Of a DNA stretch of 64,000 nt, positions 31,001 to 37,000 are shown piece after piece. The position numbers were made by a program. The stretch covers positions 1,116,001 through 1,180,000 of the forward strand of contig CM075993.1 of assembly GCA_038087875.1 (NCBI GenBank), read 5' to 3'. Within the stretch, counting starts at the first letter, position 1; every line of letters starts with the position of its first letter. The DNA comes from Malacoraja senta (Eukaryota).

Positions 31001-34000
31001 CGTTCGCACTGCGGCCTAACGGAGTTGGCGGCCTTTCCTGGAGACCGACCTGTTGGAGCTCCAAGCTGCGGGAGTCTGCGGGACTTTAACATCGCGGAGC
31101 TTGCGATCCCTTTGCCGGGGATCGAAGCTCCAACCGCGGGGCCTGTGGACTTTAACATCGTGAAGTCCGCGGTCTCTGGTAAGAAGAGGCCGACTCGGGA
31201 GCTCCACGCCGCGGAGAGAGTTTCAACCGCCCTGACGCGGGAGTTTCGATCACCCCGACGGGTGTTTCGATTGTCGGCTGCGTGGGGCTTTGATCGCCCC
31301 GACTGTGGATGGTTTGACTGCCCCGACCACGAGAGAACAAAGAGGAAGAAGATTAAACTTTATTGCCTGTAGATGAGATATGCATGTGCCTTTAACATAG
31401 TGACCTCACACCCACTAACCACTCCCCATATCACAAGTATAACTACCACCTCCACACCCACAGATCGCTCTCTAGTTCCTGTGACAGACCACGTACAGCT
31501 AGTGCAATGTATAATGTCCAGTATGAATAAAGATAGTAAAGTAACGATGCCTCGTTATCAAACCTTTACATGGTGTCAAATAACTTACCTTGCGCCTCCC
31601 GTTTATCGGTTTATCATTTAATTTTGACCCAGTTTTTTGTTTCCCCCCTAACTGTTTTTGTTATGGCCTCTTCTGCCCGTAAGCCCGATGCGCTCGTTTT
31701 CGATTTCGACATCACCCTTCGATGGGACATATTCAAACGCGACTTTGAACACTATTTCACGATTGCCCATCCTGGCGCCACCGACGCTCTCAAAGCCTCG
31801 CTGCTTCTCAACTTGGCTGGTCCCAACGCCTTGACTCGCTCGGACTTCTTCGTCTACGCTCCTGGAGAATCAGCTCGGGACCCGGCATGTCTGTTGGCTA
31901 AGTTTGACGCTATTTGTGACATTCCTACTAATTGTATTTTAGAACGTTTTAAACTGTTCGCGTGGCGTCAGCTCCCTGGGGAATCTGCTGAGAACTATGT
32001 CATTGCGCTGCGGGACCTGGGCAGGCGCTGCCGCCTCGAGACGTGGACCCCCGATAATGTCATCAGGGACCTACTGGTTTACGGTCTCCGTGATGAGAAG
32101 CTCAGGTCCGAACTACTTCGCAAGCCGGATCTGACCTTGGCCGATGCAATGCACGCGACTCGCTTAGCCGACGCTGTTTCCGCGGCGGCGCCGCCGGCTG
32201 AACAGGCGATCAACTTTGCCAGCACTCCTAGCTATCTCATGAACGCACCCCAGTCGCGACCCCCGGTGTCGCTCGCTGCTCGAGGGGGACGCGCCCCGGG
32301 GTTCGGTGGTGCCACAAGGGGAGACACCCAGCAAAGGTGCCCTAATTGCAACTTCACAACTCATCAGTTCAATGTGTGCCCTGCGCTGGGAAAGAACTGC
32401 AACTCCTGTAATAAGTTGAACCATTTTGCTGCAGCTTGTCGTTCCCGTGGGAAGCCTGTCGCTGCTCGAAGGCAAAATTTAAACAACCTTCTACAGTCGG
32501 ATAATGATCTCAGCTCCCAGCACTATTCCGATGAACATTCTGTTCCTACATCTAACTCCTCTCAGGGGGAAACCAGCTTGTTTACCGTGGTGAACGCACC
32601 TGCTATGATAACGGATCCTTCTGTGCAAGTCACTGTGAACAACTCGACCTTCACGGCCAAAATCGACACTGGGGCGGTTACCAATGTTATGTCAATATCT
32701 CTTTTCAACCAGATAAGGACTAATGAGAAGATATTTTCTCAGAGCTCAAACCTGCATGCCTACGGTGGGGAGATCCTTACTCCTGTGGGCAAGGCCACAC
32801 TACACTGTAAGATACTGAAGGCCACTCGGCCCCTCACCTTCTTTCTCCTCAATCGAAGTTGCGTTCCCCTGCTGGGGATCCAGGCATGCCAGGAAATGGG
32901 ACTGGTGTCCTTCCACCGGGACATCCACCACGTGCAGGCTCTTATGGACCCGCTGGCCGAGTATCCTGACCGCTTTGATGATAACCTAGGCAAACTACCC
33001 TGCAGCTACAAGATTGAAGTGGACCATAAGATCGTTCCTGTGGTCCATGCTCCTCACCGTATTTCCTTCGCCATGAGGGACAAAGTGGAGGCGACCCTAC
33101 ACAGTATGGTACAAATGGGCGTCCTAAAGGCGGTCGTCGAGCCCACCAGCTGGGTCTCTTCCATGGTTGTTGCTGCTAAAAAGGACATGAGTAAGATACG
33201 CATCTGCATCAACCCCAGAGACCTCAACCTGGCCATTCGGCGCCCTCACTACCCTATGAGAACGGTGGAAGACGTCGCTGCACGGGTTGGTCCAGCAACG
33301 GTCTTTTCGGTCCTCGATGCCAAGAGTTCATTCTGGCAGATACCACTGGACGAGCGGTCGTCCATTTTGACAACCTTCGCCACCCCCTATGGAAGGTTTC
33401 GGTTCCTCCGAATGCCCTTCGGAATCAACTCTGCCAGCGAGGTATTCCAGCGAACCATGGAACAGTTGTTTTCAGATCTGCCTTGCGCCATAATTGTTGA
33501 CGACATCCTCGTTTACGGTAAGGATGTTGCCGAACACGATGTCAACCTCCGCCTGATCCTGGACCGGGCCAGGCAAATCAACTTGAAACTGAACCCCAAG
33601 AAGTGCCGATTCCGCATCTCGGAGGTCACCTATGTTGGACACGTATTCACCGCTGAGGGGCTGAAGCCAGACCCGCAGAAAACGACTGCCATCTCAGGGA
33701 TGCCTCCTCCTACTAACGTGGCAGGCCTGCAACGCTTTCTCGGCTTGGTAAACTACCTGGGGAAGTTCATCCCCGACCTAAGCGAGCTCAGCGCTCCCCT
33801 GAGGGATCTGATCAAAAAGGACACTTCCTGGCTTTGGTTACCCAATCATCAGAAGGCATTTGACATTCTTAAGTCTAAACTGATCAGCACACCCACGCTC
33901 AAGTTCTTTGACCTGCGGCATCCCATTGTCCTCACCTGCGACGCCTCTCAATTCGGACTCGGTGCCGCCTGCCTCCAGGTCCATGACGGCCTGCAGATGC

Positions 34001-37000
34001 CTGTCTCATTCGCGTCCCGCACCATGACCGCCACCGAACAGCACTACGCGCAGATTGAGAAGGAGCTACTGGCCGTGCTGTTTGCCTGCTCCAAATTCCG
34101 GGACTACATCGTGGGCAACACTTTCACCGTTGAAACTGACCATCAACCACTTGTTACCATCCTCAACAAACCGATCCATGTGGCCTCATCACGTCTGCAG
34201 CGCATGCTGCTGCAGCTCCAGCGTTTCACGTTCACGGTGGTGTATCGTAAGGGGAAGGACATGTTCGTAGCCGACACGTTGTCTCGCGCCCCGCTGACGT
34301 CCACTGCTCGCCACCAATACAAAACGTCCGAGTTACTAGTACTACGATTGAACTTCGTCCCCTCGCCACAGATGAAGTCCCTGGTTGAACACACTACCAA
34401 CGACCCTGCCCTGCAACAGCTGTCTGCCGTCATCCGGCAGGGCTGGCCTGACCGTCGCTCGGCACTGCCGGCTGGAGCCGTGCCCTACTTCCTGATTCGG
34501 GACGAGCTCGTATTGCACGACGGCGTGGTGGTGAAGGGTCACAAAGTAGTCGTGCCCGCGGCGCTGCACGACCACTATTTTCAGGTCGCACACCGCGGTC
34601 ACACTGGGGCCGAAGCCACTTTGTCTCTCGCCAAGGCACAGTTCTATTGGCCGGATATGGCAAAGTACATCCGGGAGAGGGTCTCATCGTGTTCCACCTG
34701 CAACAGCCGCGCCCCCCATCAGCAGCGTCAGCCGCTTCTACAGCAGCCCGCGCCCGGACTGCCCTGGATGGCGCTCGCCACAGACATTTTCGAGTGGCGG
34801 GGCAAACATTTCCTGGTACTCGTTGACTTCTACTCCAGCTGGTTTGCGGTTGACCGGCTGCCTTCCATGACCTCTTCGGCCGTCATCGACAGGTTGGACC
34901 CTCACTTTAGCACTTTTGGCCCCCCGGCAAGCCTGCAGTCGGACAATGGCAGCCAGTTCACGAGCTCCGAGTTTAAAGCGTTCGCTTCCAGATGGAACTT
35001 TCGCCATTTCACAAGCAGCCCGGAGTACCCGCAAAGCAACGGTTTGGCCGAGCGCGCGGTCCGCAGTGCTAAGCACCTGTTGGAACAGTGTGGTGGCATT
35101 AACTCCGACTTCCACCTGGCCCTCCTCAGCCTTCGGAACATCTCTCGCGACCCTGCCATGGGCTCACCTGCTCAGCGGCTCCTGTCTCGCGCTACCAGGC
35201 TCCCACTCCCGGTGGCCCAGCGATCCCTCATACCCTCGGTCCTTCCACCTGCGGCGGTTCAGAAACGAATTGCCTTCAGGCAAGACGTCCAAAAGCGGTC
35301 CCATGACAGGTCCTGCCACCCGCTGCCGCCCCTCTTCCCCGGTCAAGTAGTCCGTATGCAGACCACTCCCGGTCACTCCAAGCTCGCTACTGTCGTCAGC
35401 TCTGCGGGGTCGCCCAGGTCCTATTTCGTCGACTACGCTGGGACCATTTACCGACGGTCTCGCCAGCACCTTCGGCTCGTCCACGAGCCGCGTCCTCCTG
35501 CCGCCGATCCCTTTGCTCCCCCGCTGCCTGTTTCCCGTCCGGCCGTTGCCCTGCCCGTGATTCCCTGCATGCCTCGCTCTGCTCCTCCTTCGCCCCCTCC
35601 GCTCCAACACACTCCGACTAGTCCTCGCACGCCCCCCCGCGCTCTTCCCGGACCCGCATCCCCTCCGGTTTCGGTGCCGCGATCTCTTCCGTTTCCTCCC
35701 GTTTCTCCCTTTCAGGTTCGTCTGTCCCCGCTGGTGCCTCTTCCTCCTCCAGGAAGGGTGGATGGCGAGACGCGAACCCGGGCGGGACGTCTGGTCAAAC
35801 CGCCTGACCGCTATGGCGATGTTGCCTAGCTATCCTAGCGCATGAGCCGTGGTCGCCATGTCACCTTTGTATTTGCCTGTCGTTTCGGGGAGGAAGGATG
35901 TAGATGAGATATGCATGTGCCTTTAACATAGTGACCTCACACCCACTAACCACTCCCCATATCACAAGTATAACTACCACCTCCACACCCACAGATCGCT
36001 CTCTAGTTCCTGTGACAGACCACGTACAGCTAGTGCAATGTATAATGTCCAGTATGAATAAAGATAGTAAAGTAACGATGCCTCGTTATCAAACCTTTAC
36101 ATTGCCTTCCATCACAGTGAGGAATGTGGGGAATCCACTGTGGTGGATGTTTATGTTAACTTTTATGTGGGTGTGTGTCTTGTTGCTTTTCACTTAGTAC
36201 GGCAGTATGGTAACTCCAATTTCACTGTACCTTAATTGGCACATGTGCCACTTGTTAAAACAGTAAGGATGTAGTCTTGGTCTTGCAGCATGGGTGTTTC
36301 ATTGCTCGAGGAGCTGTGAATGGGACTAAGTTTATACACCCACATCGCCAACTATGACCTCAGTGTAGAGAGAAGTGTCAGATCCTCACATCGATCCGAA
36401 TATAATAAACACACTCCAGGGACACTCAATGCAAGGATCTGACAGGAATGTCAAGGATAAAGCATCCCATCAAACACTGTCGCCCTCATCTTGCTGCTGT
36501 AATTCAGCTCTTCTGCCCATGTTTGGCACATGGCTGCAATGAGGGTTTTGATGAAAGCGAAACTAAGCATTGAGTAAATATCATGTAATGTCTCTCTCAA
36601 CATCCGCCAACTGTTTGCTGATGAATGATAGCTGACCAATAGAGCAATAATTAGCTGAAATGAAATTATCTTACGTTTTGTAGATCTGAAATATCTAAGC
36701 AATTTTTCATTTCTAGTTATATGGCAGTGGTGTAAATGTAAATAGCTAGGCTAGATGGCAGAGAGGTGAACTAGTCTTCACATGACTGCCAGATACTGCG
36801 TGGTCAGGAAGACTTTGCTACATAGTGCTTACTGCCATTTCTTGATAACCTTTGTTTAGTTTAGATACAGCGCGGAAACAGGCCCTGCGGAAACAGGCCC
36901 TTCATCCCACCGAATCCTCACCGACCAGCGATCCCCGCACATCAACACAATCTTCTAAACACTAGAGACAATTTACATTTATTCCAAGCCAATTAACTTA

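What the first reader, a model, noticed from the sequence alone, without database searches (positions are those of the whole stretch)
31368..36101. Intact, very recent and compact Mag-like Gypsy element in a MYO9A intron
Seen: no differences between the 203-bp LTRs, a perfect TSD, an uninterrupted 1388-aa ORF with catalytic residues present, total length only 4734 bp, and a body visibly richer in GC and CpG than the host DNA. It is antisense to MYO9A. Established: short LTRs, a single ORF, two CCHC knuckles, a tRNA-Leu-type PBS and a 5-bp TSD fit the Mag lineage, which is common in aquatic invertebrates and fish. Inference: probably transposition-competent and polymorphic; the lack of CpG decay fits a recent arrival, possibly by horizontal transfer.
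Basis: partly seen in the sequence, partly recalled or inferred. Interest (0 to 1): 0.65.

Follow-up and report, generated by a model that had tools for sequence, protein, structure and literature searches.

The report
Intact young Gypsy retrotransposon, MYO9A intron
A complete, undamaged copy of a common kind of jumping gene (a Gypsy-type LTR retrotransposon built like the Steamer, SURL and Jule elements of aquatic animals) sits backwards in an intron of the myosin IXa gene of what looks like a cartilaginous fish; it is a tidy but ordinary example.

Summary
Two 203-bp LTRs are 100% identical. They end in TG..CA and are flanked by a 5-bp duplication (TTGCC). The element is 4734 bp with one open 1388-codon frame, and it is far richer in GC and CpG than its surroundings.

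The frame encodes a capsid-like helical domain, two CCHC knuckles, protease, RT, RNase H and integrase. The catalytic residues line up with those of Ty3. There are zero stops or frameshifts, and no env or chromodomain.

The element lies antisense in a 17,866-nt intron near the 3' end of a myosin IXa gene. The host looks like a cartilaginous fish.

Its nearest relative is a little-skate protein (60% identity overall, 73% in RT-RNase H; bootstrap 100/100). A group of 12 teleost elements and one sea-star element comes next.

Size, single frame, short LTRs and 5-bp duplication match published Steamer-like (Mag C-clade) elements. Membership in Mag could not be tested against reference sequences.

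"Very recent" means no more than a few million years. Nothing here supports horizontal transfer, and polymorphism is untested. This is a new member of a known kind.

The parts
31363..31367 (.). [quoted passage not shown]
31368..31570 (+). 5' LTR, 203 bp, TG..CA ends; TATAA at 31438 and 31510, AATAAA at 31526
   Evidence: U3/R/U5 limits not determined
31571..31578 (+). primer-binding site (minimum extent), directly after the LTR and beginning with TGG
   Evidence: the 8 nt equal the start of oligos printed as complementary to the tRNA-Leu(CAG) 3' end in PMC7229842 and PMC6103689; true length and host tRNA unknown
31663..35829 (+). single gag-pol reading frame, 1388 codons plus stop; 0 stops and 0 frameshifts
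   Evidence: M1 invariant in 37/37 relatives; C-terminal end conserved with a tilapia relative
31663..32217 (+). capsid-like all-helical domain of Gag (aa 1-185)
   Evidence: AlphaFold model, block pLDDT 84-98 over aa 1-180; top PDB fold matches are all capsid proteins, led by PNMA2 (E 8.4e-3, prob 1.00), then MLV, HIV-1, Arc, dArc1 and PEG10, though none reaches E <= 0.001; no Pfam or PDB sequence match
32338..32439 (+). two CCHC zinc knuckles (aa 226-239, 246-259), nucleocapsid-like
   Evidence: the seven Cys/His listed (C226, C229, C239, C246, C249, H254, C259) are invariant in 37/37 relatives; H234 is not on that invariant list
32614..32901 (+). aspartic protease (aa 318-413; IDTGA at 334-338)
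   Evidence: Pfam RVP E 0.0039, below the curated cut-off; motif; 24/37 relatives match gag-asp_proteas
33178..33645 (+). reverse transcriptase (aa 506-661; IVDD at 611-615)
   Evidence: Pfam RVT_1 4.3e-22; alignment to Ty3 7q5b
33835..34227 (+). RNase H (aa 725-855)
   Evidence: Pfam RT_RNaseH_2 9.6e-30 and RT_RNaseH 1.1e-28; acidic residues aligned with Ty3
34552..34716 (+). integrase zinc-binding H2C2 domain (aa 964-1018)
   Evidence: Pfam Integrase_H2C2 3.5e-12; motif aa 969-1013
34783..35052 (+). integrase catalytic core (D1041, D1094, E1130)
   Evidence: Pfam rve 1.2e-12
35053..35826 (+). integrase C-terminal region followed by a proline-rich tail (49 Pro in aa 1161-1388); no chromodomain
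   Evidence: no Pfam family at E <= 5; 35% identity to a tilapia relative, conserved at both ends with a variable middle; composition
35887..35898 (+). polypurine tract, 12 nt, abutting the 3' LTR
35899..36101 (+). 3' LTR, identical to the 5' LTR
36102..36106 (.). right copy of the target-site duplication (TTGCC)
23707..41572 (-). host intron (17,866 nt, GT..AG on the - strand) of a myosin IXa gene. It lies between exons 41695-41573 and 23706-23503. The element plus duplication makes up 26.5% of it.
   Evidence: tblastn of 8 named Myo9a proteins, exon by exon; splice sites read; size

Best explanation
This is one complete copy of an autonomous Ty3/Gypsy (Metaviridae-type) LTR retrotransposon with no env gene and no chromodomain. 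It belongs to the large 'K02A2.6-like' assemblage, which the literature places with the SURL/Steamer/Jule elements in the Mag lineage.

Shown:
- the two LTRs
- the 5-bp duplication
- a PBS-like TGG site and a polypurine tract
- one open gag-pol frame with capsid-like domain, two knuckles, protease, RT, RNase H and integrase

Inferred from the established life cycle of such elements:
- An RNA starts in the 5' LTR and is polyadenylated in the 3' LTR (AATAAA at 36057).
- One polyprotein is made and is cut by its own protease.
- A host tRNA primes minus-strand DNA at the PBS, and the polypurine tract primes the plus strand.
- Integrase joins the TG..CA ends to the chromosome with a 5-bp stagger.

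Age and origin:
- The copy entered a 17.9-kb intron of myosin IXa, antisense to the gene. This happened within roughly the last few million years at most.
- It most likely came from a family resident in cartilaginous fishes, since its nearest relative is in a skate.

My confidence by part: about 0.97 that it is an intact Gypsy element in that intron, about 0.65 that it falls inside Mag in a reference tree, and about 0.9 that it is not a recent cross-phylum arrival.
For: Structure:
- LTR pair, duplication and length.
- Open frame.
- Pfam order RVP, RVT_1, RT_RNaseH, Integrase_H2C2, rve.
- The best solved relative is the Ty3 Gag-Pol (7q5b), at E 4.5e-82 over aa 446-1154. The RT, RNase H and integrase catalytic residues align with it.
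- The capsid fold is predicted with high confidence, and only capsid proteins head the PDB fold list.
- The knuckle Cys/His are invariant in 37/37 relatives.
- 2/37 relatives match Retrotrans_gag and 2/37 match PNMA.

Family size:
- 702 hits at E <= 0.001 among 8000 scored candidates.
- 220,683 cluster representatives at E <= 0.001, and 30,556 at E <= 1e-30 (aa 1-1200).

Nearest relative:
- A Leucoraja erinacea protein, 593/982 identical across Gag to RNase H.
- In an NJ tree of RT-RNase H, the window groups with the skate in 100/100 replicates. That pair plus 12 teleosts and a sea star also group in 100/100.

Compactness is the family norm:
- By my count, 68 of the 120 listed relatives sit on contigs of 3.5-5.6 kb (table).
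- MchSLE1 is 4758 bp with one 1376-aa ORF and 185-bp LTRs (PMC11046912, passages).
- Steamer makes a 5-bp duplication (PMC10663159, passages).

Host context.
Against: - No named Mag, SURL, Jule or Steamer sequence could be brought into the tree, so lineage placement rests on architecture and on a label carried by relatives.
- The LTR ends (TGTAGATG ... CCTTTACA) match the published Mag C (TGTNATRT / AYANAACA) and Mag A end motifs only in TGT and ACA (PMC3601003 Table 3). That paper's Mag C model had 0% sensitivity.
- The PBS match to tRNA-Leu(CAG) is only 8 nt, and it is to sequences printed for human tRNA.
- The flanks do not show the CATN/NATG site bias reported for Steamer (read).
- Protease is weak in Pfam (E 0.0039, below the cut-off).
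- No fold match reached E <= 0.001.
- The tree is NJ on 24 hand-picked named hits. Two further named hits (P0079, P0088) and the hits without a species name were left out.
- The position of the sea-star element is unresolved (45 against 44 of 100).
- Host assignment rests on one exon: best hit Chiloscyllium punctatum at 69%, the other 27 at <= 53%, with only proteins of 276-2000 aa searched.
- Copy number, expression and polymorphism are unknown.
Confidence: 0.8

Rival explanations
1. Recent horizontal arrival. The family entered this host lately from an unrelated aquatic species, and that is why the copy is GC-rich and CpG-rich and has no LTR divergence.
For: - Element GC is 0.556 and CpG o/e is 0.885, against about 0.40 and 0.38 in the flanks.
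- No near-identical protein turned up among 5.8 billion. The best is 60% identity, and the window's own ORF is not listed.
- Steamer-like elements are reported to move within and across phyla (Metzger 2018, as cited in PMC7846101, passage; the original is not held).
- A sea-star element sits inside the fish group of the tree.
Against: - A young copy of any coding element keeps its CpG in a CpG-depleted genome, so composition does not discriminate.
- No donor-like sequence was found. Every relative outside cartilaginous fish is <= 56% identical overall and <= 63.5% in RT-RNase H.
- The nearest relative is in another cartilaginous fish, with 100/100 support.
- Other CpG-rich spots exist in the window, with o/e up to 0.95 outside the element.
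- No eukaryotic genome collection was open, so the test proper could not be run.
Confidence: 0.07
2. An older, fixed copy that is no longer moving. The LTRs are too short and the host clock too slow for differences to have arisen, and the frame is open by luck or through weak decay.
For: - Zero differences in 203 bp allow up to 1.48% LTR divergence at 95%. That is 3.0, 7.4 or 14.8 million years at assumed rates of 2.5e-9, 1e-9 or 0.5e-9.
- Only 361 of 12,492 possible single-base changes (2.9%) would make a stop. An open frame alone therefore allows 0.56-2.5% divergence, depending on the assumed share of indels.
Against: - All tested motifs are intact.
- CpG o/e is about 0.9 over 4.3 kb of interior, with 308 CpG, although the host genome sits at about 0.38.
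- Both LTRs keep all 4 CpG.
- These signs together fit a short residence, but no figure can be given without the host's rates.
Confidence: 0.3
3. It belongs to a Gypsy lineage other than Mag: an unnamed non-chromoviral clade, or one of the fish clades such as the V-clade, Barthez or Osvaldo/Gmr.
For: - No reference sequence was available.
- The LTR end motifs of Mag A and Mag C are not matched.
- The Mag lineage is called 'the most polyphyletic' by PMC6238403 (passage).
Against: - The domain order is PR-RT-RH-IN, not the Gmr1 order with integrase first (Gmr1 order as described in PMC8220671).
- There is no chromodomain.
- The knuckles are CCHC.
- Size, single ORF and LTR length match MchSLE1.
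- Relatives carry the K02A2.6-like label tied to the C-clade.
Confidence: 0.2
4. An assembly artefact or a domesticated gene rather than a real mobile-element insertion.
For: None was found. It is listed for completeness.
Against: - A perfect 5-bp duplication flanks exact TG..CA ends, and host-like sequence lies on both sides within one intron.
- A PBS and a polypurine tract are in place.
- A domesticated gene would not keep LTRs.
Confidence: 0.02

Closest known systems
[quoted passage not shown] MchSLE1 of Mytilus chilensis
   Same: - Almost the same build. MchSLE1 is 4758 bp with a single ORF of 1376 aa, 185-bp LTRs, two zinc fingers as the only Gag similarity, D(S/T)G protease, xxDD RT, HHCC and DD35E integrase, a PBS and a PPT (PMC11046912, passages).
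- The element here is 4734 bp with 1388 aa and 203-bp LTRs.
- Steamer makes a 5-bp duplication (PMC10663159), as here.
   Different: - No sequence of Steamer was available to compare.
- MchSLE1 is said to use a tRNA-Asn PBS. Here the first 8 nt fit tRNA-Leu(CAG).
- MchSLE1's first finger is CCCC. Here both are CCHC.
- The CATN/NATG site bias of Steamer is not seen at this site.
- The host is a vertebrate. PMC8905726 says fish elements form a group of their own near Steamer.
Jule of Xiphophorus (first vertebrate member of the Mag family; Volff et al. 2001)
   Same: - It is a vertebrate Gypsy element of the Mag family (title seen in reference lists).
- From recall only: about 4.8 kb, LTRs of about 200 nt, no env, low copy number, with one copy found in a gene intron.
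   Different: - The paper is not held and no Jule sequence was available, so the likeness is recalled and untested.
- The teleost relatives found here are 60-63.5% identical in RT-RNase H.
Little-skate protein LOC129707187 (Leucoraja erinacea), protein P0002
   Same: It is the nearest relative found: 593/982 identical (60%) from the first Met of Gag through RNase H, 73.2% in RT-RNase H, and sister in 100/100 bootstraps.
   Different: - It is an annotated gene model of 1036 aa with no integrase domain.
- At 40% divergence it is a different family by the 80% rule quoted in PMC6238403.
Ty3 of yeast (solved Gag-Pol 7q5b, RT/RNase H 4ol8)
   Same: It shares the superfamily, the domain order and the catalytic residues. 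E is 4.5e-82 over aa 446-1154. The 5-bp duplication of Ty3 is from recall.
   Different: Ty3 makes Gag and Gag-Pol from two frames (recall), whereas one frame is used here. The Gag parts show no sequence similarity.

Membership tests
Ty3/Gypsy LTR retrotransposons (Metaviridae) | Direct LTRs with TG..CA ends flanked by a short target-site duplication | tested here: met
   203-bp LTRs 100% identical, TG..CA ends, TTGCC on both sides
Ty3/Gypsy LTR retrotransposons (Metaviridae) | pol order protease, RT, RNase H, integrase | tested here: met
   Pfam domains in that order; Ty3 is the best PDB match
Ty3/Gypsy LTR retrotransposons (Metaviridae) | Gag with a capsid fold and a nucleocapsid zinc knuckle | tested here: met
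   Two CCHC knuckles; model aa 1-185 at high pLDDT; the PDB fold list is headed only by capsids, with the best at E 8.4e-3; no sequence-level Gag match
Ty3/Gypsy LTR retrotransposons (Metaviridae) | PBS next to the 5' LTR and a polypurine tract next to the 3' LTR | tested here: met
   TGG starts at 31571; 12-nt purine run at 35887-35898
Mag lineage (A-, B- and C-clades: Mag, SURL, Jule, Steamer) | Groups with the reference elements in RT, RNase H and integrase trees (this is how PMC8220671 and PMC6238403 assign it) | not testable with these tools
   No named reference sequence could be fetched. Indirectly, relatives are labelled K02A2.6-like, a label that PMC8905726 links to the C-clade.
Mag lineage (A-, B- and C-clades: Mag, SURL, Jule, Steamer) | Compact build: about 4.7-5 kb, one gag-pol frame, LTRs of about 170-215 bp, no env, no chromodomain | tested here: met
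   4734 bp, one frame, 203-bp LTRs. Compare MchSLE1 and the mean LTR lengths of 174 (Mag C) and 213 (Mag A) in PMC3601003 Table 1. No chromo or env domain. Only 69 nt lie between the stop codon and the 3' LTR.
Mag lineage (A-, B- and C-clades: Mag, SURL, Jule, Steamer) | LTR end motifs of the Mag C and Mag A models (PMC3601003 Table 3) | tested here: not met
   Compared by eye. Only TGT and ACA agree. This is a descriptive motif from weak models, not a defining feature.
   8 nt agree with the printed complements of the human tRNA-Leu(CAG) 3' end. There is no tRNA gene in the window and no host tRNA set.
Chromoviruses (Sushi and the like) | Chromodomain at the integrase C-terminus | tested here: not met
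   No Pfam family in aa 1131-1388 at E <= 5
Gmr1 clade | Integrase upstream of RT | tested here: not met
   Integrase is last; feature as described in PMC8220671
Errantiviruses / endogenous retroviruses | An env reading frame after pol | tested here: not met
   pol stops at 35829 and the 3' LTR starts at 35899; no further long frame with a domain

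The most novel reading that the evidence does not exclude
The copy belongs to a low-copy family that is still active. It reached a cartilaginous fish recently by horizontal transfer from another aquatic animal, as reported for Steamer-like elements, and it is still polymorphic in the population. That would make it one of the few live LTR retrotransposons caught at arrival in this slowly evolving vertebrate group.
Probability: 0.06. Interest if true: 0.45.

Novelty: new member of a known kind. 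Interest (0 to 1): 0.17.

Why it matters
Scientifically it matters little. Gypsy elements of this build are abundant in aquatic animals. The search found 30,556 cluster representatives at E <= 1e-30, and 28 Mag families are reported in zebrafish alone (PMC4746887).

Its uses are practical:
- It is a clean full-length reference copy for annotating this family in cartilaginous fishes. The one skate relative found is annotated as an ordinary gene.
- It is a candidate presence/absence marker.
- It is a reminder that an intact open frame in an intron should be masked before gene prediction.

It would gain interest only if population or comparative data showed ongoing activity or a foreign origin.

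Tried and rejected
Slips and searches with no bearing:
- translated from 31664, one base out of frame. This was corrected.
- Rfam found nothing in the window at gathering scores. It also found nothing at E <= 0.1 in 29800-37600.
- ARAGORN found no tRNA in the window.
- The bacterial promoter/terminator scan has no bearing on a eukaryotic LTR and is not used.
- A Pfam scan of 349 open frames of at least 55 aa outside the element found only nuclear-receptor, RhoGAP and one ALKBH8_N match. It showed no second retroelement domain.

Gag by sequence:
- Pfam at E <= 5 and PDB at E <= 10 gave only weak knuckle matches.
- The fold route then worked.

Papers:
- Volff 2001, Bowen and McDonald 1999 and Metzger 2018 are not held. 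What I say of them comes from citing papers or from recall, and is marked as such.
- Supplementary files were not consulted. Tables of fish Gypsy families in them could bear on the lineage claim.
- My only search for this family in sharks and rays (75 papers, 15 listed, titles and abstract starts seen) showed no paper devoted to it. That is no evidence of absence.

Collections not searched:
- The genome collection holds only bacteria and archaea.
- Copy number, sister copies and empty sites could therefore not be looked for.

Readings rejected (see rivals): env-bearing retrovirus, chromovirus, Gmr1, domesticated gene and assembly error.

Full report
OBSERVATION.
- Two direct repeats of 203 bp (31368-31570 and 35899-36101) are identical.
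- Each begins with TG and ends with CA.
- They are bracketed by TTGCC at 31363-31367 and 36102-36106.
- The whole element is 4734 bp.
- Directly after the 5' LTR comes a TGG-initiated site (31571 onward).
- Directly before the 3' LTR comes a 12-nt purine run (35887-35898).
- One frame, 31663-35829 on the + strand, runs for 1388 codons without a stop. My first try was out of frame by one base.
- The count of breaks in the element's genes is zero stops and zero frameshifts.
- Element GC is 0.556 and CpG o/e is 0.885. The two flanks have 0.417/0.39 and 0.395/0.369.
- The window contains no N and no second copy or solo LTR.

WHAT THE FRAME ENCODES.
- Pfam finds, in order, a weak retroviral protease (aa 318-413, E 0.0039, below the curated cut-off), RVT_1 (506-661), RNase H (725-855), the integrase H2C2 domain (964-1018) and the integrase core (1041-1123).
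- The best solved relative is the Ty3 Gag-Pol polyprotein (7q5b), at E 4.5e-82 over aa 446-1154.
- In the printed alignment, the RT aspartates, the RNase H acidic residues, the integrase His/His/Cys/Cys and the D, D, E residues stand opposite the same residues of Ty3.
- Motif scans give two CX2CX4HX4C knuckles (aa 226-239, 246-259), IDTGA (334-338), IVDD (611-615), H/H/C/C (969-1013) and D1041/D1094/E1130.

THE GAG PART.
- The first 225 residues match nothing in Pfam or PDB by sequence.
- An AlphaFold model was built on an alignment with 36 relatives. It is confident (block pLDDT 84-98) and all-helical over aa 1-180.
- The PDB fold list is headed only by capsid proteins: PNMA2 (E 8.4e-3, probability 1.00, 162 columns), MLV, HIV-1, Arc, dArc1 and PEG10. 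None reaches E <= 0.001.
- 2 of 37 aligned members match Retrotrans_gag and 2 of 37 match PNMA.

THE C-TERMINAL PART.
- The integrase C-terminal region is conserved with a tilapia relative up to and including the last residues.
- A variable, proline-rich middle lies between the conserved ends: 49 Pro in aa 1161-1388.
- There is no chromodomain.
- There is no room for env, since only 69 nt separate the stop from the 3' LTR.

WHERE IT SITS.
- I searched the host gene exon by exon and left the joined step out.
- One exon (46146-46349, - strand) is 94-100% identical to named fish myosin IXa proteins.
- tblastn of eight named Myo9a proteins places exons on the - strand at 42945-42805, 41695-41573, 23706-23503, 20706-20572 and 19237-18767, among others upstream.
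- The intron between 41573 and 23706 has GT and AG at its ends on the - strand and is 17,866 nt long.
- The element with its duplication makes up 26.5% of that intron. It lies 5471 nt from the upstream exon and 7661 nt from the downstream exon.
- It carries no AATAAA on the gene's sense strand. This fits a harmless intronic passenger, which is an inference.
- At the left end of the window a nuclear receptor gene on the + strand is closest to NR2E3.

THE HOST.
- The last Myo9a exon is 69% identical to a Chiloscyllium punctatum protein and at most 53% identical to the other 27 hits (only proteins of 276-2000 aa were searched).
- Together with the skate relative below, I take the window for a cartilaginous fish.
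- I do not take it for human.

RELATIVES.
- Against 5.8 billion proteins there are 702 hits at E <= 0.001 among 8000 scored candidates.
- The best named one is a Leucoraja erinacea gene model, 593/982 identical from the first Met of Gag to the end of RNase H.
- All others are at most 56% identical.
- No near-identical protein is listed, and the window's own ORF is not listed either.
- An exhaustive profile-free scan with aa 1-1200 finds 220,683 cluster representatives at E <= 0.001 and 30,556 at E <= 1e-30. This is a very large and common family.

THE TREE.
- I built an NJ tree of RT-RNase H from the window and 24 hits that carry a species name. I picked them by hand from the 120 listed. Two further named hits and all unnamed ones were left out.
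- The window pairs with the skate in 100/100 replicates.
- That pair joins 12 teleost elements and one sea-star element in 100/100.
- The 12 teleost elements group in 88/100.
- The place of the sea-star element is unresolved (45 against 44).
- Cnidarian and mollusc elements lie outside, and amphioxus and arachnid elements lie far off.
- Identity to the window in this region is 73.2% for the skate, 59.9-63.5% for the 12 teleosts, 62.3% for the sea star, 55.9-57.6% for the cnidarian and mollusc elements, and 43.7-48.9% for the far group.

WHICH LINEAGE.
- The Mag lineage is defined by trees with reference elements (PMC8220671, PMC6238403; passages). I had no such sequences, so formal membership is untested.
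- In its favour, MchSLE1, a Steamer-like element of the C-clade, is 4758 bp with one 1376-aa ORF, 185-bp LTRs, two zinc fingers, a PBS and a PPT (PMC11046912).
- Steamer makes 5-bp duplications (PMC10663159).
- Several relatives here are labelled K02A2.6-like. PMC8905726 connects that label with the C-clade and notes fish elements as a group of their own near Steamer.
- Mag elements are known in teleosts, with 28 families in zebrafish (PMC4746887).
- By my count, 68 of the 120 listed relatives lie on contigs of 3.5-5.6 kb, so compactness is the rule in this family.
- Against it, the LTR ends fit the published Mag A and Mag C end motifs only at TGT and ACA (PMC3601003).
- Also against it, the flanks lack Steamer's reported site bias.
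- The Gmr1 order, a chromodomain and env were each tested and not found.

THE PBS. The first 8 nt after the LTR equal the first 8 nt of oligos printed as complementary to the 3' end of human tRNA-Leu(CAG) (PMC7229842, PMC6103689). After that they differ. The window has no tRNA gene. 'tRNA-Leu type' is therefore plausible but rests on 8 nt, three of which are universal.

AGE.
- Zero differences in 203 bp gives a 95% upper bound of 1.48% on LTR divergence. That is 3.0, 7.4 or 14.8 million years for assumed rates of 2.5e-9, 1e-9 or 0.5e-9 per site per year. The rates are assumptions, not measurements.
- Only 361 of 12,492 single-base changes would create a stop. The open frame alone therefore bounds the copy's own divergence at 0.56-2.5%, depending on the assumed indel share.
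- The copy keeps 308 interior CpG at o/e 0.90 in a genome at about 0.38. This points the same way.
- The copy is young, but 'very recent' cannot be sharpened further from this window.

HORIZONTAL TRANSFER.
- Composition does not discriminate, because any young coding copy looks like this in a CpG-depleted genome.
- No donor-like sequence was found, and the nearest relative is in another cartilaginous fish.
- The group has a published record of cross-phylum transfer (Metzger 2018, as cited in PMC7846101; the original is not held).
- The sea-star element inside the fish group hints at such events somewhere in the clade's past.
- I put recent transfer for this copy at about 0.06-0.07.

WHAT STAYED UNCHECKED.
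- Copy number, sister copies, empty sites, expression and methylation were not checked.
- Whether the exact protein is in the protein collection is unknown (database switched off).
- Paper supplements were closed and were not consulted.

VERDICT. This is a new member of a known kind and of low interest.

Noticed in passing
window 31000-31367: A 368-nt stretch abuts the element on the left, outside the LTR and the duplication. It is as GC-rich and CpG-rich as the element (GC 0.598, CpG o/e 1.10). The next 300 nt to the left (o/e 0.41) and the right flank (0.35-0.37) are host-like. It holds a degenerate repeat of about 22 nt at 31217-31327. It has no match to the element or elsewhere in the window and no Pfam hit. 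Whether it is another young insertion, a CpG island or a target preference is unresolved.
   Followed up: partly
window 17-6110 (+): Exons of a nuclear receptor: zf-C4 at 17-286 and 2002-2316, ligand-binding domain at 4607-4969 and 5793-6110. The last is closest to NR2E3 in the PDB (4log, E 3.6e-31, against NR2E1 at 2e-16). The gene is convergent with Myo9a, whose last exon ends at 18767.
   Followed up: partly
window 38032-38118 (-): One Callorhinchus milii Myo9a isoform (P0156, 1399 aa) matches here (29 aa, 72%, E 4e-6). An AG lies just before 38118. This is possibly an alternative exon 1.9 kb from the element. The element would still be intronic.
   Followed up: partly
window 27141-27509 (-): An open frame matches Pfam ALKBH8_N (E 6.2e-5, 22 residues). 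From recall, this model often picks up the tail of LINE ORF2 proteins in fish, so this is probably an old LINE fragment.
   Followed up: no
window 30331-30716 and 36844-37165: Two interspersed repeat families flank the element. The left one has copies at 22635-22876, 1909-2029, 2774-3144, 58726-58822 and 41237-41317. The right one has copies at 20193-20465, 39428-39584 and 42127-42250. Identity is 69-86%. There is no Rfam match.
   Followed up: no
window 13900-14500: The most CpG-rich spot outside the element (o/e up to 0.95, GC about 0.50). It holds a 31-nt tandem repeat at 14188-14248. It lies between the two genes.
   Followed up: no
window 31570-31662 (+): An in-frame ATG is formed by the last base of the 5' LTR and the first two bases of the PBS. 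It extends the open frame by 31 codons, to 1419 aa. Relatives align from the Met at 31663, which is invariant in 37/37, so the extension is probably not used.
   Followed up: partly
protein P0031 (Patiria miniata) in the tree: A sea-star element is as close to the window's RT-RNase H (62.3%) as the teleost elements are. It groups with the fish elements in 100/100 replicates. This pattern recalls the published cross-phylum transfers of Steamer-like elements.
   Followed up: no
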